This document shows positions 6,378 to 44,002 of a DNA stretch of 44,002 nt, piece after piece (position 1 is the first letter of the stretch; the number at the start of each line of letters is the position of its first letter). The DNA comes from a virus, in the UHGV virus genome UHGV-1377823. One strand, written 5' to 3'. A program made the position numbers and the translations under genes. The notes under the pieces were generated by a model that saw only the letters and a list, made by a program, of their open reading frames with translations, ran no database searches and was not told where the DNA came from.

Positions 6378-6584
6378 ATGACAGGTAAATGCGGAGCAGA
6401 TTGTACTAACCGTTGCAGCATCGGGGCTTGCCCTAAAGCGGAGCCTAAGGATGAGTTTGATGGATTCATCCTGGACTTCGATGAAGAAGCTGTAGCAAAG
6501 CGTAATGCTGAGCGTGAGCAGGCTCAAACAGAGAGCGCCTACAAGCTCAGCGATGACGGTACGTGCGACGGTTGTACTATTTAG
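6378..6584 (+). CDS. hypothetical Cys-rich small protein
   Basis: ATG 6378 with an AAAGGTG SD. N-terminal CGADCTNRCSIGACP and C-terminal CDGCT cysteine clusters; acidic middle. Confidence 0.45.
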   Translation: MTGKCGADCTNRCSIGACPKAEPKDEFDGFILDFDEEAVAKRNAEREQAQTESAYKLSDDGTCDGCTI

Positions 6585-6637
6585 TAGCACTTAGGATTAA
6601 CCTCAGAAACGTCACGATTAACGTAGAGGGCAGCGAA

Positions 6638-14722: not shown

Positions 14723-17080
14723 TTGGCGAAAACCTTCGAAGGTGTTATGCCCAGTTTGCTACAGGGCGTATCCCAACAGATTCCAAGAGAGCGTCAACCT
14801 GGGCAACTGGGGGCGCAGCAGAACCTGCTCAGTGACCCTGTTACTGGGTTGCGCCGTAGGCCTGGAGCACGCTACGTTAACACTCTGAGTATGCAGGCTC
14901 CTGCCGGGGACGATTATCTGTTCACGGCTTATATTGAGCGTGGTACTGATGGGCGACACCTGCTCATCAACACGGAAACCGGGGCCTGGCGTTTATACAG
15001 TAAAGATGGTTTAACCGCTAAGAACACAGGTCAGAGCAACTACTTTATAGCTAGTGCAGGCGCAACCAGTATTCAAACTGCTAGTATTAACGGCCTGACT
15101 TATATTCTCAACACTGAGAAGGCCCCTAGTACTAGTGTAGATAATACAGGCAAGATAAATCCAACAACCACGGGCTTCTTCCGAGTAAATACTGTAGCCT
15201 TCGGTAAGTCCTGGTCTGTCAAGGTATCGTGGACCGGGGGTAGCGCCACCGCTCAATATGATGTTCCTGTATCTGGTAGTGCTAGTGATGCTGCTGCAGA
15301 TACAGTTATAGGTCGTCTGGTTAACGGGGGTGCTAACACCACGGGGAGTTTAAGCGCGGGGATTACTGCCGCAGGGGGTACTGTTGTATATGATGGCGCA
15401 GCCCTCTTTGTTTATGGACTCCCTAATGTAGCAGTAACCTCTAGCTCCGGGAGTACTTACGGGACTGCCTCTAATCAGATGCGGGTATCTCAGGAGTCAG
15501 ACCTGCCTGCGGCGCTCCCCGGTGCAGCTGACGGTTGTATGTGCGCAGTAGGGCAAGCAGGTTCAGACGCTACGTGGTATCAGTATGATTACCCTAATCG
15601 CACCTGGAACGAGGTAGGCGCTTATGGTAGCATCAGCAGCATTACGAACATGCCACTGGAGCTGGCGGCCGATGATAACATTATTGTACGGGCATTTGAG
15701 GGTCGCTTAGCTGGCGATGATGATACCAATAAGGACCCAGCTTTCGTAGAGAACGGGTACATCACAGGTATCTGCGCATTCCAGGGACGTTTAGTTCTGC
15801 TATCCGGGGCTAGTGTATGCATGAGCGCCAGCGGGTTGTATCAACGCTTCTACCGCAGTACAGTAACATCCTTGCTGGATACAGACCGTATTGATATTGC
15901 GTCTGCGTCGGCTCAGGACTCTGTGTTCCGTACAGCCGCACAGTTCAACCGGGACTTGGTTATCTTCGGGGATAGTATGCAGGCGGTTATTCCAGGAGGG
16001 GCTGCGCTTACTCCTACTAACGCAAGCGTAACCCTAACCTCAGAGTTTAGCTGCGATAGCCGGGTACAGCCTGTTGTAACAGGTCAGACCCTGCTATATC
16101 CTAACAGACGCAACAACTCCTACGCGGGCATCCTGGAGTTTATACCATCTGCGTATACATCCTCACAGTACGTATCACAGGATGCTACGGTGCACTTGCC
16201 GCGTTACATCCCAGGTAGGATTATGCGTATGCACGTATCCTCAGTTACCAACACAGCTTTTATCCGGGCATCCGGGGAGCGCGGGACTTTGTTGGTGTAC
16301 GACTTTATGTGGGGTGCCGACAACCAGAAGGCACAGGCGGCTTACCATAAATGGACACTCCCTCGCAATATCCTGAACATGCACTCAGTATCAGAGATTA
16401 TGTATGTGTTCGTGCGGGAGCCTAGTGGGCTTGTTCAGATACTGAGTATTGACCCACGCGAGGGATTCGTGGCTGGCGGTGTTTACGATTACCCGTACCT
16501 GGATATTCTGCGTACTGTTACAGTAGTCTCTGGGCAGTTCTACCTGCCGAATGAGTTACGGTCTCCTGGTATTTCGCTGGACAATATAGCGTTGGCTTAT
16601 ACTGAGGGTAGTACTGCAGCGGGGTCTGAGCTGGGCTTAGCCAGCATGGACAGCTCGTACCTGGTTAAGACTGTGCGCGGGGTTCCTGACGGTACGTACT
16701 ACATAGGACAGCGTTTCCTCTCTACGGTAACACTAACCCCACCTATGCTGAAGGACCAGAATGACCAGTTGGTAGGTTCAGGACATGTACGCCTACTGCG
16801 TCTGGATACGGCAATCCGTAATAGTGGGGTGTTTGACGTGCGCATACAAGATACTACACGGGATATAGATGCCGCTGACACAAAGTCTGGGGTGCTGATG
16901 AACTCTAAAGAACTGGCCCCCGGGCTTCCGCTCAAGGCAGATTTAGGGAACATTATAATCCCGTGCCGTACTAACTCCGATACAACTGATGTAACCCTGA
17001 GTACATCAGGTACACAAGAAATGAACGTGCTGGATGTATCTTACATCCTGCGCTACAATCAACGCAGACAGAGGGTGTAG
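14723..17080 (+). CDS. tail tubular protein B (gp12-like)
   Basis: The N-terminus MAKTFEGVMPSLLQGVSQQIPRERQPGQ...GLRRRP aligns with T7 gp12 MALISQSIKNLKGGISQQPDILRYPDQG...GLQKRPP. TTG start with an AGGAGA SD. Confidence 0.9.
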   Translation: MAKTFEGVMPSLLQGVSQQIPRERQPGQLGAQQNLLSDPVTGLRRRPGARYVNTLSMQAPAGDDYLFTAYIERGTDGRHLLINTETGAWRLYSKDGLTAKNTGQSNYFIASAGATSIQTASINGLTYILNTEKAPSTSVDNTGKINPTTTGFFRVNTVAFGKSWSVKVSWTGGSATAQYDVPVSGSASDAAADTVIGRLVNGGANTTGSLSAGITAAGGTVVYDGAALFVYGLPNVAVTSSSGSTYGTASNQMRVSQESDLPAALPGAADGCMCAVGQAGSDATWYQYDYPNRTWNEVGAYGSISSITNMPLELAADDNIIVRAFEGRLAGDDDTNKDPAFVENGYITGICAFQGRLVLLSGASVCMSASGLYQRFYRSTVTSLLDTDRIDIASASAQDSVFRTAAQFNRDLVIFGDSMQAVIPGGAALTPTNASVTLTSEFSCDSRVQPVVTGQTLLYPNRRNNSYAGILEFIPSAYTSSQYVSQDATVHLPRYIPGRIMRMHVSSVTNTAFIRASGERGTLLVYDFMWGADNQKAQAAYHKWTLPRNILNMHSVSEIMYVFVREPSGLVQILSIDPREGFVAGGVYDYPYLDILRTVTVVSGQFYLPNELRSPGISLDNIALAYTEGSTAAGSELGLASMDSSYLVKTVRGVPDGTYYIGQRFLSTVTLTPPMLKDQNDQLVGSGHVRLLRLDTAIRNSGVFDVRIQDTTRDIDAADTKSGVLMNSKELAPGLPLKADLGNIIIPCRTNSDTTDVTLSTSGTQEMNVLDVSYILRYNQRRQRV

Positions 17081-17081
17081 C

Positions 17082-17693
17082 ATGTGGGGTTATGTTGCTG
17101 CTGTAGCAGGTAAAGCTCTGCTGGGTGCCTTTGATGCCGGGACTCAGCAGAAGGCTGCTATGAGTCAGAACAAGGCTGCTATGACGCAGCTAGCTAAAGG
17201 CATTACACAGATTAACCTGCAACGCACTGCATCACGCCAGCGTACTGCACAGGCCCTGTATAACACGCAGCTCCAGTCCGAGCAGGCTCAATCCCAGATT
17301 GGGCTGCAAGCTGCGGCTTCTGGTACTATAGGGGCATCCGTACAGGATGCCGTTAGTACTGTGAACGTACAGTCGGATAGACAGGAAGCTAGTATCTGGC
17401 AGCAGCAGATGCAGCAGGAAGAATCTTTTAGATTACAATCAGAGAAGGCTATCGATAGCACTAAGTCCAGTATGGTGTGGCAGAGCGGTGAGGATATGCT
17501 GTTCAATAACATGCTCAGCCTGTTCGGTAGCGAAGTAGGTAGCGTAGCTGCCAAGTACCTGGCTGAGGACGAAGACCCAAACAGCACTACCTCAGATAAG
17601 AACAGCCCGGACAGTAAGAGCTTCGGGTATGACCTGTGGGGTAGCAAAGGCGAGCAAGTGCTCAATTCCTGGAAGAGTTATTTAGGGGGCTAA
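17082..17693 (+). CDS. internal virion protein A (gp13/14-like)
   Basis: ATG 17082 follows the gp12 stop with a GAGGGTG SD. 203 aa, Q-rich. Confidence 0.65.
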   Translation: MWGYVAAVAGKALLGAFDAGTQQKAAMSQNKAAMTQLAKGITQINLQRTASRQRTAQALYNTQLQSEQAQSQIGLQAAASGTIGASVQDAVSTVNVQSDRQEASIWQQQMQQEESFRLQSEKAIDSTKSSMVWQSGEDMLFNNMLSLFGSEVGSVAAKYLAEDEDPNSTTSDKNSPDSKSFGYDLWGSKGEQVLNSWKSYLGG

Positions 17694-25938: not shown

Positions 25939-26238
25939 ATGGCAAAGGCGGCAACTAAAAGCCGCCTCAGCGAACTTCACAGGATGTTTACTGAGGCGCT
26001 AATTAGCGAACTCAAGCAGGCGGGGGAAGAGGAGATTCCTTTACCCGCTGCGGATAAGTCTGTTATCGCCAAGTTCCTCAAGGATAACGAAATCACTGCT
26101 GATGCAGACTCTACGGAGATGCAGGAGCTGCGGGACGAGTTCGAGGATGAGCTGGCAGCTAAGCGTAAAGCACGGGCTGAGGAACTGCTGGCTAAGGCTG
26201 GGGCAGACCCAGAGGATGATTTAGCAGGGATTATTTAA
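25939..26238 (+). CDS. terminase small subunit (DNA maturase A, gp18-like)
   Basis: 99 aa, acidic and helical, immediately upstream of the large terminase subunit. Confidence 0.7.
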   Translation: MAKAATKSRLSELHRMFTEALISELKQAGEEEIPLPAADKSVIAKFLKDNEITADADSTEMQELRDEFEDELAAKRKARAEELLAKAGADPEDDLAGII

Positions 26239-26239
26239 G

Positions 26240-28090
26240 ATGATAAGCCAAACTACACTGAGCAGACTCAAGCTCATCAGTGCTCGTACAACGGTAATGA
26301 ATGATAGCCCGAGGACTATCCCGAAGGACCAGCGTGAGGAAGTAGCGCTGATGATGGCTGTGACTCTGAAGGACTTCCGAGAGTTCGCATACTTAGGTAT
26401 GAAGTTCCTCGGATTCAACCTCACAGAGATGCAGGCTGATATAGCAGAGTTTATGCAGAAAGGCCCGCGCAAGCGCATGGTTGCTGCTCAGCGTGGTGAG
26501 GCTAAGACTACTCTGGCAGCGCTGTACGCTACATGGAGACTCATCCAAGACCAGAGCTGTCGCATCCTGATTGTATCAGCAGGTGAAAAGCAATCCTCAG
26601 ATACAGCGGTACTCATCATCCGTTTAATTGAGACATGGCCCCTGCTCTGCTATTTACGAGCAGACCCAAGCAAGGGCGACCGCACCTCATACGAAGGTTA
26701 TGACGTACACTGCGACCTGAAGCCTCTGGACCGTTCAGCTAGCGTAGCCTGCGTAGGTATCACTGCGTCCCTTCAGGGTAAGCGCGCGGACTTACTAATC
26801 CCGGACGATATTGAGAGTACCAAGAACGGTATGACCCAGACTATGCGTGAGCAGTTACTGGCATTGTCTAAGGACTTCGCCGCTATCTGTACGCACGGGG
26901 ACACGCTGTACCTAGGAACGCCGCAGACTAAGGACAGTATCTACAAGACCCTACCGGGACGTGGCTTTGAAGTGCGCGTATGGCCCGGTCGTATACCAAG
27001 TGAAGATATGGAGGAACGCTATGGCGATACACTTGCTCCTTATATCCGTGAGCTTATTGAGCGCGGGTATAAACGTACAGGATTCGGAATAGATGGAACA
27101 TTAGGAGAGTGCTCAGACAAGGGGCGGTATGATGAGGATGCCCTGCTAGAGAAAGAGCTGGACTTCGGCCCAGAGGGTTTCCAGTTGCAGTATATGCTCG
27201 ACACAACCTTATCTGATGCAATGAGAACAAGGATTAAGCTCAGTGACTGTATGGTCTACTCGGGTTCCCATGATGCAGCCCCAGACCGCCTCAGCTACAT
27301 AGCGGACAAGCGCTACCTCTATACAGAGGAGCACGAGGGTATCCGTGGGCAGTTGCTGTACCAGCCAGCTAGCTATGGTGAGCTGATGCTTCCGTACCAG
27401 CACAAGCTCATGGTCATTGACCCGGCGGGTTGTGGTGGGGACGAGGTGTCCTATGCAGCAGGCGGTGCAGCGAACTCGTACTTGCACCTGTTCTCTGTAG
27501 GTGGGTTCCAGGGCGGTATCAGTACTGAGAACATCGATAAGCTCATTGACCTGGCTATTGAGCTGGGTATCTCGGACTTGTTCATTGAGAGCAACATGGG
27601 GCATGGTACAGTAGAGATGCTGTTCATGAACCGACTGCGTGAGCGTAAGATTCCCGGTATCGGCGTTAGAGGGGGCTACAACACCTCACAGAAGGAGAAG
27701 CGTATCATTGATACCATCTCCCCAGTGACTCGTCGGCATCGCCTTGTAGTGCATTCTAGGGCGCTTACAGATGACATTCAGAGCTGCATGGCCTATAGCC
27801 GCGATAAGCGATGGTTGTACAGTGCATTCCAGCAGCTCCAAAGCATTACCTACGACCGTGGTAGCTTAGCAAAGGACGACCGTGCCGATGCCGTAGCTAT
27901 GCTCGTAGCAGAACTCAACGGCTTCTTGGTTGAGGATGAGAAGGTTTCGGCTGAGAAAGAGCAGCAGAAGCAAGCTCAGAAGTTCATGGATAATCCCATG
28001 GACTGGAAGCAAAGCATGGTTGCTCCGCGCAGCCGTGGTACTCAGGCCCGGATTGACCGGGGTTTAACTAGAAGAAAAGGAAGGTACTAA
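26240..28090 (+). CDS. terminase large subunit (DNA maturase B, gp19-like)
   Basis: 616 aa with an ATPase N-terminal region and a nuclease C-terminal region. Position and size match T7 gp19. Confidence 0.92.
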   Translation: MISQTTLSRLKLISARTTVMNDSPRTIPKDQREEVALMMAVTLKDFREFAYLGMKFLGFNLTEMQADIAEFMQKGPRKRMVAAQRGEAKTTLAALYATWRLIQDQSCRILIVSAGEKQSSDTAVLIIRLIETWPLLCYLRADPSKGDRTSYEGYDVHCDLKPLDRSASVACVGITASLQGKRADLLIPDDIESTKNGMTQTMREQLLALSKDFAAICTHGDTLYLGTPQTKDSIYKTLPGRGFEVRVWPGRIPSEDMEERYGDTLAPYIRELIERGYKRTGFGIDGTLGECSDKGRYDEDALLEKELDFGPEGFQLQYMLDTTLSDAMRTRIKLSDCMVYSGSHDAAPDRLSYIADKRYLYTEEHEGIRGQLLYQPASYGELMLPYQHKLMVIDPAGCGGDEVSYAAGGAANSYLHLFSVGGFQGGISTENIDKLIDLAIELGISDLFIESNMGHGTVEMLFMNRLRERKIPGIGVRGGYNTSQKEKRIIDTISPVTRRHRLVVHSRALTDDIQSCMAYSRDKRWLYSAFQQLQSITYDRGSLAKDDRADAVAMLVAELNGFLVEDEKVSAEKEQQKQAQKFMDNPMDWKQSMVAPRSRGTQARIDRGLTRRKGRY

Positions 28091-28692: not shown

Positions 28693-28924
28693 TGTACCTG
28701 CTGACCTGGCTACTCGGGCAGGTGTAATGGCTACAGGGGTAGCTACGAGCGGCGGTTGGTTAGCAGAGATTATGTCCTGGAACTGGAGCGCTATCAGCTT
28801 CATTACAGCAACAATCTGCGCTATCCTTACCGCTGCATGGAATGCTTATATTGGACACAAGCGCCTGAGGCTTCAGGAGGAGGCTGTACGTAAAGGTATC
28901 CCATTCTATGAGATTAAGAAATAA
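28676..28924 (+). CDS. holin (probable pinholin, 2 TMD)
   Basis: 82 aa. TMD1 is weakly hydrophobic and Gly/Ala/Thr-rich (AGVMATGVATSGGWLAEIM, SAR-like); TMD2 is AISFITATICAILTAAWNAYI; the C-terminus is charged. Overlaps spanin end and endolysin start. Confidence 0.55.
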   Translation: MIRLSDVPADLATRAGVMATGVATSGGWLAEIMSWNWSAISFITATICAILTAAWNAYIGHKRLRLQEEAVRKGIPFYEIKK

Positions 28925-29450
28925 GATTATAGGTGCCCTTGCCGGGGCATCTCTCCTGGGCGGAGGCATCACCACCGTAATCCAGAACAATGAAGGGTAT
29001 AGTAGCACTGCTTATCGAGATAGCGCTGGAGTACCTACAATCTGCTACGGTGAGACCAAGGGCGTTCAGATGGGCCAGAAACGCTCTCTAAGCGATTGTC
29101 AGAAGCAATTGATACAGTCAGCAGGGGAACATGCCAAAGCGCTTGTAGGGCTTCCTGAGTCGATTCCTGACGTGGTTCTGCTGGGTAGCCTGGATATGGC
29201 TTATAACGTAGGTGTATCTGGGTTCTCAAATAGTGCAGTGAAGCGTAAGCTGGCACAAGCAGATTACCAGGCAGCAGGCCAAGCTGTGCTGCAATGGAAG
29301 TACATTACCCTGAACGGTAAGGAGTATGATTGCAGCATCAAAGGAAACAAGGTCTGCTATGGCTTGTGGAAGCGCAGGCTCTGGCAGAGCAAGGCAATTG
29401 GTAATGAATTTAAATCAGTGCAGGAAGCTGTAGCAGCCCTGCCAAAGTAA
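28908..29450 (+). CDS. SAR endolysin (T4-type lysozyme, GH24)
   Basis: N-terminal SAR-like segment IIGALAGASLLGGGITTVI followed by the catalytic triad E-8aa-D-5aa-T (EGYSSTAYRDSAGVPT). This is the architecture reported for the phiKMV, P1 and phage 21 SAR endolysins. Confidence 0.85.
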   Translation: MRLRNKIIGALAGASLLGGGITTVIQNNEGYSSTAYRDSAGVPTICYGETKGVQMGQKRSLSDCQKQLIQSAGEHAKALVGLPESIPDVVLLGSLDMAYNVGVSGFSNSAVKRKLAQADYQAAGQAVLQWKYITLNGKEYDCSIKGNKVCYGLWKRRLWQSKAIGNEFKSVQEAVAALPK

Positions 29451-29460
29451 GGAGCAAGTA

Positions 29461-31170
29461 ATGTCTTTAGTAGACTTAACAGTAGCACGGCACCCGGTTG
29501 TAGATACGGGTAGCCAGACGATTACTACGATAGCTGCCTTGCGCACTACCGAGCCTAGCTCAGATAGGCAACGTGTTACGCTTCTGGAGCATACCGCAGG
29601 AACCCGTAAAGGTGGTGGCCAGTTCCGCGCCGTTTTGGCAGGTTCGTCATACACCGACAATAATGGCACCGTCATTAAAACGCCAGGCGGCGCGGCATGG
29701 GTTCGTATAAACGCCGATATCGTGAACCCGTTGATGTTTGGAGCTTTAGGCGATGGAGCGACAAATGACAGTGTTGCACTTAACCGTGCGGGTACATATG
29801 CTACTCGTGTGATTGACCTGTTAGGGCTTACATATGGCGTAGGATCAACATGGTATTTAGAAGCTACAACCCCAAAAGTTGTTAAAAATGGGGGTTTAAA
29901 ATATCTAACAGCTCTGGGCACGGGGCCAATGATGCGTTATAAAAACGCGGCCCATGAGATGTATAATGTGGATTTTGACGGGGGCGGCAGCACTACATCC
30001 ACAGGGCTTATCTGGGAGGGTGGGAACGCCCTTCGCGGGGTTCGCGGCGGTGTAGTTCAGGACTGTAGTTTCCGCTACACAGGTGGTTCGGGTATTGCCG
30101 TTTCTTATGACGGAGCTAATAATACCGTTGGTTCCTTTGGTGTGATTAAAAGAGTTACCTTCAATCATTGTGGCCTTACTGGCGTGGGTAATGGCCGTTG
30201 TTGCCTTCTGCTGGACGGTGTTAGTAACTTCACGGTCTCGGACATTGTGGGTATAGACTGCAACTGGGGTATTTATGTCCGCAACGACTTTAATAATCCT
30301 TTATTGTCTCGTGCGACAAACAATACAATTTCCCGTGTCAATCTTAAAGGGCAGGGACTGAACAGCACGGCATATCCAGATGCTCAGGGTATTTCCTGTT
30401 CTTATCAGGATAACCTACAAATTACTGATGTTACAGTGGATGGCTTCCCAGGTAATGGTATTGATATGCAATACTGCGACGCGAGTATAGTCACGAACTG
30501 GAGAGCTACTGCTTGCGGTGATGGTGTCTTTATGGGTGACAGGGCGTGTCGTAGGCACACTATCAGCAATGGCATTGCTATTGACTGTAACCGCGCTATC
30601 CGTCTTATCACCGACGGCGGCTCCTTCATAATGAACTCTGTGGTGCCAGCTCTTGCGCATATTAAAATTACCAACGTTCATGCGTACAATTCCAGACGCC
30701 AGGCTTTTTACCTTGTTAACTCTGGTAGAGCCGCATATGGGTCTTCTATGACTAATGTGCAATTAGATAACTGCTCGGTGGACGGTACAGGGTCTCTCTC
30801 CCTAACCACTCATACGCATGGATTCCATATAGAGGGTGGCGTTAACGTAACGCTTATGAACTGTAACACCTTCAACATTCGGCAACACGGGGTCTATGTC
30901 AAAGATAGTGAGTTTGTCCGTATATTGGGCGGGGCGCACCAAAACGTAGACCAGGTTGGCGCTGGGAACCAGGGTGTTTATGTATCCTCCGATTGTAACC
31001 GCGTTAGCGTCTCTGATGTGTCTGTCTACGGTTTCGCTACTGCTGGTGCAGTTACTTTAGCTGGTGGGTCTGGACATTCAGCTAAACATATTCGCTGGCG
31101 TAGTATTGCCAGCGGCGTAACATCAAGTGGGGCTTCCTCCCCTTATCTGTTCGATAACCAGTCGTTCTAA
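29461..31170 (+). CDS. tailspike / capsule depolymerase (pectate-lyase-like right-handed beta-helix)
   Basis: FGALGDGATNDSVAL is typical of the pectate lyase/tailspike beta-helix superfamily. Repeated G-x-N/D beta-helix rungs follow. 569 aa, with no T7 gp17-like N-terminal anchor. Located after the lysis genes at the genome right end. Confidence 0.85.
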   Translation: MSLVDLTVARHPVVDTGSQTITTIAALRTTEPSSDRQRVTLLEHTAGTRKGGGQFRAVLAGSSYTDNNGTVIKTPGGAAWVRINADIVNPLMFGALGDGATNDSVALNRAGTYATRVIDLLGLTYGVGSTWYLEATTPKVVKNGGLKYLTALGTGPMMRYKNAAHEMYNVDFDGGGSTTSTGLIWEGGNALRGVRGGVVQDCSFRYTGGSGIAVSYDGANNTVGSFGVIKRVTFNHCGLTGVGNGRCCLLLDGVSNFTVSDIVGIDCNWGIYVRNDFNNPLLSRATNNTISRVNLKGQGLNSTAYPDAQGISCSYQDNLQITDVTVDGFPGNGIDMQYCDASIVTNWRATACGDGVFMGDRACRRHTISNGIAIDCNRAIRLITDGGSFIMNSVVPALAHIKITNVHAYNSRRQAFYLVNSGRAAYGSSMTNVQLDNCSVDGTGSLSLTTHTHGFHIEGGVNVTLMNCNTFNIRQHGVYVKDSEFVRILGGAHQNVDQVGAGNQGVYVSSDCNRVSVSDVSVYGFATAGAVTLAGGSGHSAKHIRWRSIASGVTSSGASSPYLFDNQSF

Positions 31171-31290
31171 CCAGAGCTTCTAACCAGTCGCTCTAAGGAT
31201 AGCCTTGGGGATAGCTTAGGGAGTGCTAGTAGGGGATGCTGGTGTATACTTGCTCCCTAAAAATATTATACTTACTAATTGGAGATATCT

Positions 31291-31740
31291 ATGAACGTTA
31301 AATATGATACAAACTCCGCCAGCGGTCTGACCTGGTTAACTGGTAGACGCGCTGGTGCTGTAGCAGGAACCCTGAACGCTAAGGGCTACTGGGTTGTGCA
31401 GATGCAAGGCAAGAAGATGCAAGTGCATCGTATTATCTGGGAGATGCTGAATGGGCCTATACCAGATGATAAAGTGATTGACCACATAAACCAGAACCCT
31501 GCTGATAACCGCATTGAGAACCTGCGCCTAGCCAGTGTCAGCGATAACAACTGCAATGCTAGACGTGATAGCCGAGAGTATCCTCGTGGGGTATACTATA
31601 CAGGTTCATGCTGGCGCGGAGAGTTCTGGAAGGATGGCAAGCGCTATATGCGAAAGCACAGCTCATACGAAGTAATCTGCCAGTGGGTTCTCAGTGAACG
31701 CGCTAGGCTTCACGGGGAGTTTATCCCTGAGCAGGTGTAA
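31291..31740 (+). CDS. HNH homing endonuclease (HNH_3 + AP2-like)
   Basis: IDHINQNPADNRIENLRLASVSDNNCNA matches the HNH_3 motif. It is a paralogue of the HNH at 40064-40534. ATG 31291 has a GGAGA SD 5 nt upstream. Embedded in the GATAGC repeat array. Confidence 0.8.
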   Translation: MNVKYDTNSASGLTWLTGRRAGAVAGTLNAKGYWVVQMQGKKMQVHRIIWEMLNGPIPDDKVIDHINQNPADNRIENLRLASVSDNNCNARRDSREYPRGVYYTGSCWRGEFWKDGKRYMRKHSSYEVICQWVLSERARLHGEFIPEQV

Positions 31741-31773
31741 ACCTGTTAGTCAAAAATGATATACTTGTGTCAG

Positions 31774-31864
31774 CCTCACCCTCACCCTCACCGCCCCTCG
31801 TTTCCCCCATAGGGGGTGCCTCAGCCAGAACTATGGCCTGGGTGGGGTGGGGGCCTGGGCCTGT
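31774..31864 (+). repeat. (CCTCAC)x3 - CCCCCATAGGGGG palindrome - G-tract run (GGTGGGGTGGGGGCCTGGGCCTG)
   Basis: Three tandem CCTCAC hexamers at 31774-31791. A perfect 5+3+5 palindrome at 31804-31816. A run of five G-tracts at 31836-31864. The C-rich to G-rich strand switch gives G-quadruplex potential on both strands. Confidence 0.6.
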
Positions 31865-32198
31865 TCAGGGATAGCCTGGGGCCTCTACGAGGCTCTGGGA
31901 GCTTCTCTAAGCGCTTCTACCGGATAGCCTATAGGATTGCATAGGGATAGCCCTGTGATAGCCTTAGCGTGGCTCTGGTTGGCTCTGAGTGATAGCTCTG
32001 AGTAGCTCTGTGTGGTAGCGGAGGTGGGCGCAGGCTTACCTCTTTTCGTCCTCTATGTGTGCCTAGAGATAGCTTAGGGATAGCTGTAGAATCCTCACGT
32101 ACAGGCCGGAGATAGCTATTGGATAGCTCCAGTGTTAGCCGGTAATGGGTATAGCTAGAAGCTAGAGGTTGCATGATAAGGTATGCTGACTGTATGCA

Positions 32199-32227
32199 TT
32201 GACTAGGTATGACCATACTGCTACTAT
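32199..32227 (+). promoter_or_regulatory. candidate sigma70 promoter TTGACT-17-TACTAT
   Basis: -35 TTGACT at 32199-32204, a 17-nt spacer, and -10 TACTAT at 32222-32227, in an AT-rich region 170 nt upstream of the 32397 gene. Confidence 0.4.
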
Positions 32228-32396
32228 TGGTCATAGCTACTGTATATACTGAGTGCATACTGAGTATATAGCTATATAGAGTTGGTCACAGCTAATGGTA
32301 GTTGATGGGGTGTAACCATAGGTCACACCTCTGTAAGTACAGGGAATATAAGGAGTTGTTTGATTGAGTATAAATCAGTTAATAGAGGGTTTAAGT

Positions 32397-33095
32397 ATGA
32401 GTGTTCACAGCTACAGTACAGGTTTCGGTACACAGTCTGTTACGCTGAATGTACAGAGCCTGGTGGATACACTGGATAAATCCGGTTCGAGGCAGCAGCT
32501 GGTACAAACAGCGCTTAAGGCTGCCAGGGCACTGAGTAATGAACTGTACGGTGAAAGGAATATACTGAAGTGCATGCAGCTTGTGCTGGCTGCTATAGAT
32601 ACAGAGCGGTATCGTTCCGGTACAGAGGTTATCGATGCTGTACTGGATGCTGATACCGCGAAGTGGTTCAAAGCGTACCGGGTTACTCCGGCTCTGCAAG
32701 CACTGTTACCTGCTGGAGTATCAGCAGGGCGTTGTAAGGCTGCGGTTAACGCAGTGTTTAAGCTACAGGGCGGTACAGTAGCTGGTAGTAAGGCTGGTAA
32801 CGTTGTAGCTGCTGCGGATGGCTCTTACAGCGTTGATACAGTAGACCTCTGCGTAGAGTTATATGACCGAGGGTTAAGTGCCGAGGATATTCGGTTCATG
32901 CTACAGCATTATGGCTACAGTCTCACCGAGTGGGAGGTACTGGAGATACTTAATCGTGAGTGCGGCTACCTGGAGAAGTTTATCTATATAGGTAACGGAG
33001 AGGTAGTGCACGCTCAGTGCAGTAGCCTGGAAGGTCTGGAGCAGTGGCAGGACGTGGTGGTAGCTGCTGAGCAGCGTAAATGGCGGGGGATGTAA
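32397..33095 (+). CDS. hypothetical protein (232 aa)
   Basis: ATG with an AGAGGG SD 7 nt upstream. The track's 32364 start uses an alternative codon. No recognisable domain. Confidence 0.6.
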   Translation: MSVHSYSTGFGTQSVTLNVQSLVDTLDKSGSRQQLVQTALKAARALSNELYGERNILKCMQLVLAAIDTERYRSGTEVIDAVLDADTAKWFKAYRVTPALQALLPAGVSAGRCKAAVNAVFKLQGGTVAGSKAGNVVAAADGSYSVDTVDLCVELYDRGLSAEDIRFMLQHYGYSLTEWEVLEILNRECGYLEKFIYIGNGEVVHAQCSSLEGLEQWQDVVVAAEQRKWRGM

Positions 33096-38821: not shown

Positions 38822-40080
38822 TCTGCCGCGCTATGTGTGAGCGCAAGGTCTATGACAGGCTGCACGACCAGATACCAAAATCCATGCTTGCGCCCGATAC
38901 TGTAGCTCTTCTGGGTTGGATTCAACTCTACTATGCAACCTACACTGACAGCAACGCTGTGCAGTGGGACGCTATGCAGACGCTCCTTGGGATGCGCGGG
39001 CAGCATCTACAGAAAGAGCAAATGGATATCCTGAAGCACATGCTCAAGCAGGTGCAGCAGGTTCCTGAAGAAGCAGTAGCCGGGGTAGTGCGTACTCTGA
39101 ATGAGATGGCCTACTCCGGCGAGATGGCGTCGCTGGTGCAGCAGTACCAGGACGGTGCAGAGATAGACTTTATCGCAGAGGCCAAGCAGTTAGAGCGCAA
39201 GTACAGCAGCGTAGCGACAGCGCAGGACTCTTTACTTAACTGGGAAGATGGGGGTGTAGATGATATACTTGCAGCGACTGACGAAAGTGGTGGCCTTAAG
39301 CTTAATGTGTTTCCCGAGCTTGCTGATAATGTTCGTGGCTTACGTGGGGGTGATTGTGTCGCTGTTGCTGCCCCTGTCGATGCAGGAAAGACTAGCTTGC
39401 TGGCTGCAACGGTTGTGGGACTTACCGAACAACTTGTTAATCAAGATGCTTACGCAGATAGACCGGTTCTATGGCTCGTGAACGAATCCCTGGCAAAGCG
39501 TACTGTACCGCGCATCTACCAGGCAGCTACCGGGCTGACCCTGCATGAGATTGTAGAGCAGCACAAGCAAGGTAAGTTCGCAGAGAAGTACCTGGCTAAG
39601 GTGGGCAGCTGGGACCGCATCAGAGTTAAGGATGCGCACAGCATCACTATGCCTCAGATAGCTACGCTAATGGAGGAGATGCGCCCGGCTGTGCTGGTTG
39701 TGGATATGGTTTCAAATATACGGGGCGGCACTCTGGAGTCTGAGCATCAGAACCTGGAAGCCAAGTGGCAGGAGCTGCGCGTGCTGGGCTGTGAGTACGA
39801 TTGCATCATCATTGGCACCATGCAGCTATCAGTCGAGGGTTATGATATGCTGTACCCGCCGCTGACAGCGATGAAGCAGAGCAAGATCGGTGTACAGGGG
39901 GCGCTGGACCTGTGCATTATGATGGGCAGGTTAGACCCTAGCACAAGGCCGGACATGCTGAACATCCGGGGGATATCCACCCCGAAATGTAAGTTGGCTA
40001 AATCCGGCAGTCCTAGTTATTTGCAATTTCAAGTGGAGTTTGACGGTGGTAGATGTCAATTTAATGCAGGCCTTGTATAA
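38809..40080 (+). CDS. replicative DNA helicase (DnaB/gp4 helicase-domain family)
   Basis: Walker A motif AAPVDAGKTSL and a RecA-like core. TTG 38809 has a GGAGGG SD 7 nt upstream; ATG 38833 is an alternative start. Confidence 0.88.
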   Translation: MDYLICRAMCERKVYDRLHDQIPKSMLAPDTVALLGWIQLYYATYTDSNAVQWDAMQTLLGMRGQHLQKEQMDILKHMLKQVQQVPEEAVAGVVRTLNEMAYSGEMASLVQQYQDGAEIDFIAEAKQLERKYSSVATAQDSLLNWEDGGVDDILAATDESGGLKLNVFPELADNVRGLRGGDCVAVAAPVDAGKTSLLAATVVGLTEQLVNQDAYADRPVLWLVNESLAKRTVPRIYQAATGLTLHEIVEQHKQGKFAEKYLAKVGSWDRIRVKDAHSITMPQIATLMEEMRPAVLVVDMVSNIRGGTLESEHQNLEAKWQELRVLGCEYDCIIIGTMQLSVEGYDMLYPPLTAMKQSKIGVQGALDLCIMMGRLDPSTRPDMLNIRGISTPKCKLAKSGSPSYLQFQVEFDGGRCQFNAGLV

Positions 40081-41811: not shown

Positions 41812-44002
41812 TGCATATAGATTTAGAGGTTCAAAATTATGAGTACTACGGCTCAAAAGCAAGCCCGTACTGCCCGGATAACTACGTTGTGGAGTCAGCG
41901 TGGCGGGTTGATACAACGCAAGCAGACGGAACAGTCACTGTTGGAACAACTCAGTCGGTGCGGTACAACTCAAGAGCGGAATTCCTTCGCGGAAACTCTA
42001 GAGTGGGCGGTGGTACATGGTTCAATATCCCAGAAGACTGCTGGCTTATTGTCGCACACAATGCTGCGTATGAAATCAGCTGGTTCCTCAAGTACCAGCG
42101 CCAGCAGTTCGAAGCATTCCTTAAGCGCGGCGGTCGAGTGTTCTGTACAATGCATGGACACTACATCGCCTCAGACTTCCAGGACCTGTATCCATCGCTG
42201 GATGAGACGGCTCCTAAGTATGGTGGTACGCACAAAGTAGACGGGGTGAAGCTGCTGTGGGAGCAGGGGGTGCTAACTTCAGACATCGACCCGATGCTGC
42301 TGCATGACTACCTGGTGAACGGGGATATCCCGAACACGGCCCTGTGCTTCTACGGGGAGTGCGCTGTCTTCGCAGAGCGCGGGCAGATGCAAATGGTCTG
42401 GGAGCGTATGGACGCTATGCTGGCCTGGGCGTACTGTGAATTTTATGGCTTGTTTGTTAACATGCCTGTAGCGCAGCGGAACCAAGCTGAGCAGGAGCAG
42501 CGCATTCAGGAGCTGCGTCAGCAGTTGCAGCAGTACCTGCCGAAGGACCTGCCGAAGGAGTTCGAGTTCAACTACGGCAGCAACTATCATATGTCTGCGC
42601 TGGTCTATGGCGGACCTATCCGTTATGACATGAAGGTTCCGTATGACCCACCTAAGTTCGTGAAGGTGGAAGTACAGGACGGCGTGTACAAGGCAGGGAA
42701 GAACAAGGGCCTGCCTAAGTTCATCAAGGTTGATTCGGATGTACCGCTGCTGAAGTGGGGCAAGGGCATCTACAACTTCCCCGGCATCGTGAGTATCCAG
42801 GAGCTACCTCAGCACTTACAAGAGAAGTACGGTGAGCGCGGGGAGTTCAGAGGTGCTCAAACACTTCCGGATGGTTCCCCGGTGTATAGCACCAGCGGCG
42901 ACGCAATGAACGGCCTGGCTGCGCAGGGCTTCGAGTTCGCTAAGTTAGTGAACGAGCTGGCTGCGTTGGAGAAAGATACGGGAACCTATTATCTTAGAAC
43001 GGAGTACAACAAAGATGGCTCAGTTAAGAAAGTGTCCGGGATGCTCCAGTACGTTATCCCTGAGTCCGCAGATGGAAGCGGCATTATCCATCATAGACTC
43101 AACACTTGCAGCACAGTCACAGGACGCCTGTCGGCTTCAAACCCTAATCTACAGAACCTGCCCAGGGACGGAACTAGCCGAGTTAAACAGATGTTTACAT
43201 CTCGTTTTGGAGAGCAAGGCCGCATTACGGAAATCGACTACTCAGCTCTGGAAGTCGTTATGTCCTGTGTGCACACCGGGGACTTGAAGCTGCTGGAGCT
43301 ACTCCAGAAAGACACGGACATGCACTGCTATCGCCTAGCGTTCAAGGAGGGTAAGAGCTACGAGGAGATGTACCAGCTCTGCCACGACGCAAGCGGCCCG
43401 GATTACAAGTACTGGAAGCAGCAGCGTACAGACATCAAGCCTCCGAGCTTCGCAGCGCAGTACGGCGCTACGGCTAAGGGGATTGCGTTTGCTACAGGCT
43501 GTACCGTGGAGTACGCTCAGAGCTTCCTGGATAATGAGGCTAAGCTGTTCCCTACAACCATCGGCTTCCGTGACGTAGTACGCGCCGAGGTTGAGCGTAC
43601 TGGGATGCTGGAACCTGTGCTGCGTGAGCAGTGCGAGGACGGGCAGTGGCGTTTATATCGCCGAGGGTACTGGACCAGCCCAGCGGGTACACGCTACAGC
43701 TTCCGTCAGAAGCTGCAATGGCAAGTACCAGAGGGAGGCGGTCGTAAGGTTCAGGTCATGGACTACAAGGGGACCGAGATTGCGAACTACTGGAACCAAG
43801 GGGAGGCGTTCTTCCTTATGGCTGTGGCAGCGGGGCAGGTTCTGCGCAGACTCATCCAGAAGGACTGGTACGGCGGTAAGGTTGTGCTGGTAACGAACGT
43901 ACACGACGCGCTGTATCTGGATAGCGCGGACGAGGAGACGGCGGTACTAGCAGGTAACTTAGTGAAGGATGCTATGGAAGAAGCCCCGCGCCGTATAGCA
44001 GC
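41811..44002 (+). CDS. DNA polymerase (family A, T7 gp5-like), 3'-truncated at window end
   Basis: Open frame from ATG 41811 to the window end with no stop, which is why it is absent from the ORF track. Carries exo motifs MHIDLEV and LIVAHNAAYE (T7: DIEAN, LIVFHNGHKYD), polymerase motif KQQRTDIKPPSFAAQYG, and motif C VHDALY. Confidence 0.9.
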   Translation, partial: MHIDLEVQNYEYYGSKASPYCPDNYVVESAWRVDTTQADGTVTVGTTQSVRYNSRAEFLRGNSRVGGGTWFNIPEDCWLIVAHNAAYEISWFLKYQRQQFEAFLKRGGRVFCTMHGHYIASDFQDLYPSLDETAPKYGGTHKVDGVKLLWEQGVLTSDIDPMLLHDYLVNGDIPNTALCFYGECAVFAERGQMQMVWERMDAMLAWAYCEFYGLFVNMPVAQRNQAEQEQRIQELRQQLQQYLPKDLPKEFEFNYGSNYHMSALVYGGPIRYDMKVPYDPPKFVKVEVQDGVYKAGKNKGLPKFIKVDSDVPLLKWGKGIYNFPGIVSIQELPQHLQEKYGERGEFRGAQTLPDGSPVYSTSGDAMNGLAAQGFEFAKLVNELAALEKDTGTYYLRTEYNKDGSVKKVSGMLQYVIPESADGSGIIHHRLNTCSTVTGRLSASNPNLQNLPRDGTSRVKQMFTSRFGEQGRITEIDYSALEVVMSCVHTGDLKLLELLQKDTDMHCYRLAFKEGKSYEEMYQLCHDASGPDYKYWKQQRTDIKPPSFAAQYGATAKGIAFATGCTVEYAQSFLDNEAKLFPTTIGFRDVVRAEVERTGMLEPVLREQCEDGQWRLYRRGYWTSPAGTRYSFRQKLQWQVPEGGGRKVQVMDYKGTEIANYWNQGEAFFLMAVAAGQVLRRLIQKDWYGGKVVLVTNVHDALYLDSADEETAVLAGNLVKDAMEEAPRRIA

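What the first reader, a model, noticed from the sequence alone, without database searches (positions are those of the whole stretch)
31190..32160. Dense GATAGC(C/T) short-repeat array near the putative genome end
Eleven exact GATAGC copies plus several partial copies fall within about 0.9 kb of mostly non-coding DNA. A 13-mer GATAGCTTAGGGA recurs exactly at 31210 and 32068. A related longer unit (AGCTTCT..CTAAG..GGATAGCCT) recurs at 31176-31206 and 31899-31930. One copy would be unusual here by chance. T7 carries arrays of short imperfect repeats adjacent to its terminal repeats, so this array may mark the concatemer-junction / DNA-end region. It could also be a titration or binding array for a phage or host DNA-binding protein on the first DNA to enter the cell, or a cluster of phage-RNAP promoter-like elements.
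Basis: seen in the sequence. Interest (0 to 1): 0.75.

Follow-up and report, generated by a model that had tools for sequence, protein, structure and literature searches.

The report
Short-repeat array flanking phage terminal repeat
The GATAGC cluster is real and sits in and beside the predicted terminal repeat of a T7-family phage genome, so it is this lineage's version of the short-repeat arrays long known next to T7's ends, whose function is still unproven.

Summary
Confirmed. GATAGC occurs 12 times on the + strand and never on the - strand in 31190-32160. About 0.4 copies would be expected, and it is the most locally clustered hexamer in the window. The window is a permuted Slopekvirinae (Koutsourovirus-like) genome with T7-type terminase and RNA polymerase. 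Homology to the annotated 267-bp repeat of phage phiKDA1 places a single collapsed direct terminal repeat at about 31780-32033. Five copies lie in its right half and four lie just to its right, before the AT-rich promoter-like stretch that precedes the first large ORF. Two lie to its left, separated from it by an inserted HNH gene. Copies are often 11-12 nt apart. All four readable Koutsourovirus relatives keep 8-9 copies. 24 Drulisvirus-type contigs carry the same extended motif (CTAGGGATAGC) at the same place but on the opposite strand. T7 (CCTAAAG), SP6 (CTTAGT) and, less clearly, phiKMV have arrays at this position with their own motifs. I read it as the counterpart of T7's SRL/SRR arrays. 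It is most likely a phased protein-binding platform at the concatemer junction, probably for the maturation and packaging machinery. That mechanism is inferred, not shown. It is a new member of a known kind and of moderate interest.

The parts
31155..31196 (+). Tandem repeat of 13 nt, 3.2 copies (TAACCAGTCGTTC). It overlaps the tailspike stop codon and leads into the left-flank GATAGC copies.
   Evidence: TRF score 56, family D4.
31193..31222 (+). Left-flank copies (GATAGC at 31198 and 31210, 12 nt apart). By position these are the counterpart of T7 SRR, the array before the right-end repeat. An inserted HNH gene now separates them from the DTR.
   Evidence: Relatives without the HNH gene (Pec, EhYP, Entb_48) carry GATAGC-like copies at this place directly before the DTR.
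31238..31273 (+). Distal copy of the pre-DTR element GGTGTAwACyTG...AAAAATrwTATACTT. It is identical over 33 nt to the single copy in phage SDFMU_Pec.
   Evidence: (family D6).
31291..31740 (+). HNH endonuclease gene, inserted about 10 nt before the DTR left edge. It is absent from the four Koutsourovirus relatives aligned and present at the same place in Drulisvirus.
   Evidence: PF13392, E 1e-19.
31731..31766 (+). Proximal copy of the pre-DTR element, directly before the predicted left terminus. Similar elements precede the repeat in KpV71, SP6, phiKMV and T7.
31780..32033 (+). Predicted direct terminal repeat, present as a single collapsed copy of about 254 bp. The left edge is uncertain by +/-6 nt because of a (TCACCC)n run.
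   Evidence: Alignment to the left (1-267) and right (43538-43804) repeats of phiKDA1. The window holds only one copy.
31804..31821 (+). Conserved box CCCCCATAGGGGGTGCCT, about 25 nt inside the left terminus.
   Evidence: The same box is in T7 (nt 26-43), KpV71 and phiKDA1. SP6 has CCCCATAGGGTGCCT.
31865..32019 (+). Array inside the DTR: exact GATAGC at 31870, 31923, 31946, 31957 and 31991, plus degenerate copies at 31935, 32001 and 32014.
32034..32046 (+). T-rich box GCTTACCTCTTTT directly after the DTR right edge. T7 and SP6 have the class II pause signal ATCTGTT at this position.
   Evidence: The T7 concatemer-junction pause/terminator is described in bioRxiv 10.64898/2026.02.12.705533.
32063..32155 (+). 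Right-flank array, the counterpart of T7 SRL: two pairs at 32068/32079 and 32111/32122, each 11 nt apart, plus degenerate copies at 32134 and 32150.
32162..32363 (+). AT-rich stretch (37-41% GC) that I read as the early-promoter region. It contains a sigma-70-like site TTGACT-17-(TG)TACTAT at 32199-32227 and the conserved AGAGGTTGCAyG box at 32162.
   Evidence: consensus matches only.

Best explanation
What it is. The segment is the concatemer-junction region of a Koutsourovirus-like phage of the T7 family. [quoted passage not shown]

The array. The right half of that repeat, the 130 nt to its right, and the DNA to its left (now displaced by an HNH gene insertion) carry copies of (A/T)AGGGATAGC(C/T). 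All copies are on the same strand and are commonly 11-12 nt, about one helical turn, apart. By position and architecture this is the Slopekvirinae counterpart of the SRL and SRR short-repeat arrays that flank T7's terminal repeat.

Proposed mechanism (inferred, not shown). The copies are docking sites for a phage-encoded DNA-binding protein that assembles cooperatively on one face of the helix. This marks the junction and organises it for maturation, meaning the sequence-specific cuts at the repeat edges and the duplication of the repeat. The most likely binder is the T7-type terminase (TerS 25939-26238 with TerL 26240-28090) or an accessory protein. The comparison is with other multi-site packaging signals (lambda cosB, the P1 pac hexamers and SPP1 pac).

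Confidence. About 0.85 for the anatomy (an array associated with the DTR, equivalent to T7 SRL/SRR). About 0.35-0.4 for the specific role as a terminase or maturation platform.
For: Shown:
- Enrichment and strand purity: 12 copies on +, 0 on -, against 0.42 expected. It is the most clustered hexamer in the window.
- DTR position by homology to phiKDA1's annotated repeats. In a Drulisvirus relative the termini are blunt and a 222-bp DTR was shown experimentally (PMC7291057). The window has one DTR copy, as expected for such assemblies (PMC10438801).
- T7-type packaging and transcription genes are present: TerS PF11123, TerL PF22530 and the RNA polymerase.
- Conservation: phiKDA1, SDFMU_Pec, SDFMU_EhYP and the IMG/VR contig L024 each keep 8-9 GATAGC copies on the + strand. 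Individual positions turn over, including an exact one-unit (11-nt) indel between the window and phiKDA1.
- 24 distinct Drulisvirus-type contigs carry GCTATC 5-9 times, and GATAGC at most once, in the 800 nt from the DTR box, and the two genera share the extended consensus GCTATCCCTAG / CTAGGGATAGC. A matrix trained only on the Drulisvirus sites finds 8 sites in 31193-32118, against 9 in the other 43 kb on both strands.
- Spacing peaks at 11-12 nt and at 21-23 nt in both genera.
- Family-wide architecture: T7 has CCTAAAG in its repeat, at 175-355 with a 13-nt period, and at 39621-39700 before the right repeat. SP6 has CTTAG(T/G) at 225-341 with a 12-nt period and at 43408-43442. In SP6 as in the window, the most clustered hexamer of the whole genome lies here (this genome-wide scan was not run on T7).

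Inferred: that a protein binds, and that it belongs to the packaging machinery. The grounds are the position on both sides of the cut sites, the lineage-specific motif, and the one-turn phasing.
Against: - No binding or genetic data exist for this array. To my knowledge (from memory; I could not find the primary papers in the library) the function of T7 SRL/SRR was never established.
- Small terminases generally bind DNA weakly and with little specificity in vitro (review PMC9611059).
- The motif is on opposite strands in the two genera. That is awkward for any reader that tracks along the DNA in one direction, such as a translocating motor.
- In Drulisvirus most copies lie outside the DTR, directly upstream of a likely early promoter, which suits a transcription or DNA-entry role as well.
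- The ends of this genome have not been mapped physically.
Confidence: 0.5

Rival explanations
1. The array acts at the entering end of the DNA or on early transcription. Its copies bind a host protein (RNA polymerase accessory or nucleoid protein) or a virion-delivered or early phage protein. That protein protects the first DNA to enter, or activates or shuts off the first early promoter.
For: By analogy with T7 (established knowledge), the left end enters first. The right-flank array ends 30-40 nt before the conserved AGAGGTTGCAyG / TTGACT promoter-like sites. In Drulisvirus, pairs of GCTATCC sit directly upstream of TTTACA-type -35 boxes. One pair in the window overlaps a TGTAGAAT extended -10-like site.
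Against: Copies also lie deep inside the DTR and before the right-end DTR, where no promoter is expected. T7, SP6 and the Slopekvirinae all infect Enterobacteriaceae but use different motifs, which argues against a shared host factor. The promoter matches are consensus hits no more frequent than in shuffled sequence.
Confidence: 0.2
2. The array has no function. It is a by-product of replication slippage or unequal recombination in non-coding DNA at the concatemer junction.
For: Copy number and positions vary between close relatives, including whole-unit indels. Other small tandem repeats occur nearby (13-nt x3.2 at 31155, TCACCC x3.8 at 31770).
Against: The same 10-nt extended motif is kept in two genera whose array regions otherwise do not align. 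Copy number is held at 5-9 in 27 distinct genomes. Strand purity is complete within each genus. Copies are dispersed with one- and two-turn spacing rather than forming one simple tandem block. Arrays also recur at this position in T7, SP6 and, less clearly, phiKMV.
Confidence: 0.1
3. The copies are iteron-like repeats of a secondary replication origin next to the AT-rich region, comparable to the T7 left-end secondary origin.
For: Direct repeats lie next to a 200-nt stretch of 37-41% GC. From memory, T7 has a secondary origin near phiOL, next to SRL.
Against: The units are 11-12 nt with a 7-10-nt core, shorter than typical iterons. No Rep-type initiator is known in this family. Copies lie on both sides of the DTR and inside it. 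T7-type origins depend on phage promoters, not iterons (established knowledge).
Confidence: 0.07
4. The copies are a cluster of phage RNA polymerase promoters or pause/termination signals.
For: T7 has phiOL and phiOR near its ends and a class II pause site at the junction.
Against: The core is only 7-10 nt. The extended motif is not found ahead of gene clusters elsewhere: matrix hits outside the junction are scattered at 9 in 43 kb. Its orientation is reversed in Drulisvirus although all genes are on the same strand. A candidate phiKDA1 promoter inside the DTR (CCTCAGCCATAACTAAGG) was inactive, though it was tested only with a related polymerase (PMC9596486).
Confidence: 0.03

Closest known systems
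T7 SRL and SRR, the short-repeat arrays next to the 160-bp terminal repeat (Teseptimavirus T7)
   Same: It is a family member with T7-type terminase and RNA polymerase. A short core is repeated on one strand only. Copies lie inside the repeat, just right of it before the early promoters, and just left of the right-end repeat, with a period close to one helical turn (T7 13 nt, here 11-12 nt). The CCCCCATAGGGGGT(A/G)CCT box is shared near the left terminus.
   Different: The motif is different (CCTAAAG against GGATAGC). In T7 the copies inside the repeat are in its left part, here in its right half. Here the left-flank copies are separated from the DTR by an HNH gene. Function is unproven in both.
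SP6 (Zindervirus) CTTAGT array right of its 174-bp terminal repeat
   Same: CTTAGT is the most clustered hexamer in the SP6 genome. It shows a 12-nt period, one strand only, and extra copies before the right repeat.
   Different: The motif is different. Only one copy lies inside the repeat.
Drulisvirus (KP34-like) GCTATCC array
   Same: The extended motif is the same (GCTATCCCTAG is the reverse complement of CTAGGGATAGC). The phasing is the same, 11-12 nt. The place is the same, between the DTR box and the early genes. An HNH gene precedes the DTR in KpV71, the one Drulisvirus record whose right end I read, and the window's HNH gene has about 71% identical DNA matches in many other Klebsiella phages. 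Motif and phasing.
   Different: The motif is on the opposite strand. Most copies lie right of the DTR rather than inside it. The surrounding sequence does not align with the window.
Multi-site terminase recognition signals (lambda cosB R sites, P1 pac hexamer repeats, SPP1 pacL/pacR)
   Same: [quoted passage not shown]
   Different: Those belong to cos or headful packaging systems and their binding was tested genetically or biochemically. Here binding is only inferred and the packaging type is T7-like short DTR.

Membership tests
T7-type short-repeat arrays flanking the terminal repeat (SRL/SRR-like) | The genome is an Autographiviridae genome with T7-type terminase, a single-subunit RNA polymerase and short direct terminal repeats. 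| tested here: met
   Pfam gives TerS PF11123, TerL PF22530 and RNA_pol PF00940. The closest relatives are Koutsourovirus. The DTR was mapped by homology to phiKDA1.
T7-type short-repeat arrays flanking the terminal repeat (SRL/SRR-like) | The array lies directly right of the repeat, or overlaps it, at the left genome end, before the early promoters. | tested here: met
   Five copies lie at 31870-31991, inside the predicted DTR. Four lie at 32068-32122, just right of it. The AT-rich, promoter-like region follows from 32162. The physical ends themselves were not mapped.
T7-type short-repeat arrays flanking the terminal repeat (SRL/SRR-like) | A second group of copies lies before the right-end repeat. 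| tested here: met
   Copies lie at 31198 and 31210, next to the pre-DTR element at 31238-31273. In relatives without the HNH gene such copies abut the DTR, except in phiKDA1, which has none there.
T7-type short-repeat arrays flanking the terminal repeat (SRL/SRR-like) | A short core is repeated on one strand only, with a period of about 11-13 nt. | tested here: met
   12 of 12 copies are on the + strand. Spacings of 11-12 nt account for 11 of 26 intervals in Koutsourovirus and 57 of 164 in Drulisvirus. T7 shows 13 nt and SP6 12 nt.
T7-type short-repeat arrays flanking the terminal repeat (SRL/SRR-like) | The repeat unit is sequence-homologous to the T7 unit CCTAAAG. | tested here: not met
   The motif is GGATAGC(Y), and no CCTAAAG enrichment is seen. 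Membership is therefore by position and architecture, not by unit sequence.
Terminase recognition site (pac/cosB-like) | The small terminase, or the terminase holoenzyme, binds the repeats specifically. | not testable with these tools
   This needs EMSA or footprinting with the product of 25939-26238, with and without that of 26240-28090.
Terminase recognition site (pac/cosB-like) | The sites are required in cis for concatemer cutting and packaging. | not testable with these tools
   This needs a plasmid-transduction assay or a mutant phage.
Phage RNA polymerase promoters | A conserved motif of about 17-23 nt recurs upstream of gene clusters in a fixed orientation relative to transcription. 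| tested here: not met
   The conserved core is at most 10 nt. The motif is confined to the junction region. Its orientation is reversed between genera that are transcribed in the same direction.
Structured RNA (Rfam families) | The region matches a covariance model. | tested here: not met
   No match at E up to 1 in 31000-32500.

The most novel reading that the evidence does not exclude
Oriented, helically phased short-motif arrays around the terminal repeat may be a family-wide 'end-marking' element of Autographiviridae. Each lineage would have its own motif (GGATAGC in Slopekvirinae, CCTAAAG in T7, CTTAGT in SP6), each read by a co-evolving and so far unidentified phage protein. That protein need not be the terminase. 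It could, for example, be an end-binding or junction-organising factor needed for repeat duplication or for protecting the entering end.
Probability: 0.25. Interest if true: 0.6.

Novelty: new member of a known kind. Interest (0 to 1): 0.38.

Why it matters
The short-repeat arrays next to T7's terminal repeat have been in the sequence since the genome was first read, and to my knowledge no function was ever assigned.

This work shows three things that make the question easier to test.
- An equivalent array exists in Slopekvirinae.
- Its 10-nt motif is kept across two genera while positions, copy number and even strand change.
- The one-turn phasing is shared with T7 and SP6.

Together these give defined motifs and natural variants, and they argue against a reader that depends on direction.

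There is also a practical use. The array and the CCCCCATAGGGGGT(A/G)CCT box locate the true genome ends in permuted assemblies of therapeutic Klebsiella and Enterobacter phages.

Tried and rejected
- Literature. Searches for the T7 SRL/SRR arrays and for the SP6 and phiYeO3-12 genome papers found nothing usable. Statements about what is known of SRL/SRR function therefore rest on my memory.
- Pre-DTR element as a promoter. I tested whether AAAAATrwTATACTT is a general phage promoter. It occurs only at the two junction-proximal places, no more often than chance elsewhere, so it is not a promoter consensus.
- Motif dimer scan. It was not informative beyond the Slopekvirinae loci.
- Salmonella phage KKP 3828. 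It is the closest relative for the early region, but its record stops at the CCCCCATAGGGGG box and restarts at AGAGGTTGCA, so the array region is missing, probably from assembly trimming. It cannot be used as evidence of absence.
- Segmental inversion. I looked for one that could explain the strand flip between genera. Only motif-sized matches appear on the minus strand and there is no extended homology.
- Motif versus spacer conservation. Comparing the two within Drulisvirus was uninformative because the whole region is about 83% identical.
- Other rejected readings. Rfam found no RNA family. The minus-strand ORF 31929-32258 (109 aa) and the + ORF 31816-31944 are unlikely genes, because relatives differ there by 11-nt and larger indels.
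- A resemblance of GCTATCCAC to a DnaA box holds for a single Drulisvirus copy only, and I dropped it.

Full report
**Observation**

Reading 30900-32500 and counting GATAGC on both strands gives 12 copies in 31190-32160. All are on the + strand. One of them, at 31567, lies inside a gene.

The rest of the window holds 37 copies on both strands, or 0.43 per kb per strand. That predicts about 0.42 copies for the region (Poisson P about 4e-14). For the core 31860-32130, 9 copies are seen against 0.12 expected.

A scan of every hexamer shows that GATAGC is the most locally clustered word in the whole window. The exact 13-mer recurrence at 31210 and 32068 is real. The 'longer unit' is only a loose resemblance. 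Repeat finders report short families with spacings of 11-12 and 23 nt.

**Context**

All long ORFs are on the + strand. Pfam identifies these genes:
- a T7-type small terminase (25939-26238, PF11123)
- a T7-type large terminase (26240-28090)
- a single-subunit RNA polymerase (6563-9082)
- an endolysin (28908-29450)
- a beta-helix tailspike (29461-31170)
- an HNH_3 endonuclease (31291-31740)

The closest genomes are Koutsourovirus (Slopekvirinae): phiKDA1, SDFMU_Pec, SDFMU_EhYP, Entb_48 and Salmonella phage KKP 3828.

The window is therefore a circularly permuted assembly of a T7-family genome. The finding lies between the last late gene and the first large ORF after it (32364-33095), which I take to be the first early gene.

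**Where the ends are**

phiKDA1 is annotated with 267-bp left and right direct repeats. Both align to window 31780-32033 at about 85% identity. The left edge falls in a (TCACCC)n run and the right edge falls at ...GGAGGTGGGCGCAG.

The window contains this stretch once, and its own ends do not overlap. That is how assemblers usually treat T7-type genomes (PMC10438801).

In the sister genus Drulisvirus the equivalent repeat is annotated in KpV71 at 246 bp. It was demonstrated experimentally, with blunt ends, in fHe-Kpn01 at 222 bp (PMC7291057).

The ends of this particular genome remain an inference from homology.

**Anatomy relative to the predicted repeat**

- Five exact copies (31870, 31923, 31946, 31957, 31991) and three degenerate ones lie in the right half of the repeat.
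- Directly after the right edge comes a T-rich box, GCTTACCTCTTTT.
- Two pairs of copies, each 11 nt apart, follow at 32068/32079 and 32111/32122, with degenerate copies up to 32155.
- From 32162 the sequence becomes AT-rich (37-41% GC). It carries sigma-70-like sites, for example TTGACT-17-TACTAT at 32199-32227, ahead of the ORF that starts at 32364.
- To the left, copies at 31198 and 31210 follow a 13-nt tandem repeat at the tailspike stop codon.
- Next comes a 36-nt element (31238-31273) that recurs at 31731-31766 just before the repeat (family D6).

In the four Koutsourovirus relatives aligned, which lack the HNH gene, this element occurs once, directly before the repeat. In Pec, EhYP and Entb_48 it is preceded by GATAGC-like copies. 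The HNH gene is therefore an insertion about 10 nt before the left terminus, and it has pushed the left-flank copies 490 nt away. The element occurs nowhere else in the window.

**Conservation**

phiKDA1, Pec, EhYP and the IMG/VR contig L024 each keep 8-9 GATAGC copies on the + strand and none on the - strand at this place. Entb_48 also carries them on one strand only, but its record begins and ends inside the repeat, so its copies cannot be counted cleanly. Individual positions are gained and lost, including an exact 11-nt one-unit difference between the window and phiKDA1.

I then scanned IMG/VR with the box CCCCCATAGGGGGTRCCT, which lies about 25 nt inside the left terminus. This returned 24 distinct Drulisvirus-type contigs. 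Each carries GCTATC 5-9 times, and GATAGC at most once, in the 800 nt from the box.

The extended consensus there, GCTATCCCTAG, is the reverse complement of the Koutsourovirus consensus CTAGGGATAGC. A weight matrix trained only on the 193 Drulisvirus sites finds 8 sites in 31193-32118 of the window. It finds 9 in the other 43 kb on both strands.

The two genera align only over the pre-repeat element and the first 42 nt of the repeat. The array regions share nothing but the motif. Spacings peak at 11-12 and 21-23 nt in both genera.

So the motif, the copy number, the phasing and the strand purity within a genus are maintained. The arrangement and the strand are not.

**Comparison across the family**

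I read T7 directly.
- CCTAAAG occurs at 17, 41 and 60 inside the 160-bp repeat.
- Together with close variants, it recurs eleven times at 175-355 with a 13-nt period. This is SRL.
- CCTAA(A/G)G occurs four times at 39621-39700, before the right repeat. This is SRR.

In SP6 the most clustered hexamer of the genome is CTTAGT. It lies at 225-341 with a 12-nt period, just right of the 174-bp repeat, with more copies at 43408-43442.

phiKMV has several clustered G+C-rich heptamers at 224-790, inside and to the right of its 414-bp repeat.

T7, SP6, Drulisvirus and the window also share the CCCC(C)ATAGGG(GG)T(A/G)CCT box. They share an AAAAT..ATATA..GTGT element just before the left terminus as well.

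This is the same kind of feature with a lineage-specific unit.

**Mechanism**

Nothing here shows binding. The case for a protein-binding array rests on four points:
- the same 10-mer is maintained across genera whose surrounding sequence has diverged beyond alignment;
- the copy number is stable despite turnover of individual copies;
- the spacing is one helical turn;
- the orientation is uniform within an array.

Two points suggest a phage rather than a host protein. The motif is lineage-specific in phages that share Enterobacteriaceae hosts, and the arrays sit on both sides of the two cut sites.

I therefore favour a docking platform for the maturation machinery, meaning the T7-type terminase or an accessory protein. 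It would mark the junction and position the cuts and the duplication of the repeat, in the manner of other multi-site packaging signals. The review PMC9611059 describes SPP1's multiple contacts flanking the cut. [quoted passage not shown]

The strand flip between genera argues against readers that depend on direction. These include phage RNA polymerase promoters or pause sites, primase sites, Chi-like signals, and recognition by a translocating motor. The flip is compatible with a duplex-binding protein.

A role in DNA entry or early-promoter control remains a serious rival. In Drulisvirus most copies lie outside the repeat, immediately upstream of promoter-like sites. Neutral slippage and an origin function are less likely, for the reasons given under the rival explanations.

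**Verdict**

The feature is a new, well-conserved member of a known but functionally unexplained class. I rate the interest as moderate. The comparative facts found here, especially the same motif on opposite strands in sister genera and the family-wide one-turn phasing, make the old question about T7 SRL/SRR more testable. The feature itself is not surprising for a T7-family genome.

Noticed in passing
window 31804-31821; L011 (T7) 26-43; L009 (KpV71) 25-42; L062 (SP6) 29-43: A palindromic box CCCCCATAGGGGGT(A/G)CCT lies about 25 nt inside the left terminus and is shared by T7, Koutsourovirus and Drulisvirus. SP6 has CCCCATAGGGTGCCT and phiKMV has CCCCCGTAGGCCCT. It is a handy marker of true genome ends in permuted assemblies and is probably part of the end-processing signal.
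   Followed up: partly
window 31238-31273 and 31731-31766, flanking the HNH gene 31291-31740: The HNH gene is flanked by two diverged copies of the pre-DTR element. The distal copy is identical over 33 nt to the single copy in SDFMU_Pec. The proximal copy matches the KKP 3828/phiKDA1 type. This suggests the gene arrived with its downstream flank by recombination or homing, inserting about 10 nt before the packaging cut site. KpV71 has the same arrangement.
   Followed up: partly
window 32034-32046; L011 (T7) 161-167; L062 (SP6) 173-179: In T7 and SP6 the class II pause signal ATCTGTT sits exactly at the right edge of the terminal repeat. The window (GCTTACCTCTTTT) and KpV71 (CCTTGCTTATTTT) have a different, mutually similar T-rich box at that position. 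It may be the pause signal for their own polymerase.
   Followed up: no
window 31155-31196 and 31770-31792: There are two further small tandem repeats. One is 13 nt x3.2 (TAACCAGTCGTTC) across the tailspike stop codon. The other is TCACCC x3.8 exactly at the predicted left terminus, which makes the left edge uncertain by 6 nt.
   Followed up: no
L006/L007 (OR067835.1, Salmonella phage KKP 3828), record end and start: The GenBank record ends at ...CCCCCATAGGGGGTC and restarts at GAGGTTGCACG. It therefore lacks most of the terminal repeat and the whole array, which looks like an assembly or trimming loss rather than biology.
   Followed up: partly
L004/L008 (PV067696.1, Enterobacter phage Entb_48): The record is deposited in reverse orientation. 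It begins and ends inside the terminal repeat, with part of the repeat present at both ends.
   Followed up: no
L009 (KpV71) 56-66; L017, L019, L050, L051 (IMG/VR Drulisvirus-type contigs): Drulisvirus repeats carry a poly-G run just after the box, 11 G in KpV71. It is much longer in several IMG/VR contigs (GGGGGG scores 11-33 overlapping matches in L017, L019, L050 and L051). Some contigs break or are mis-joined there. The window has no such run.
   Followed up: no
window 17446-17459: GCTATCGATAGC, a perfect palindrome made of the motif and its complement, gives the best-scoring motif hits outside the junction. It lies within the long ORF 17034-17693 and is probably a chance occurrence.
   Followed up: no
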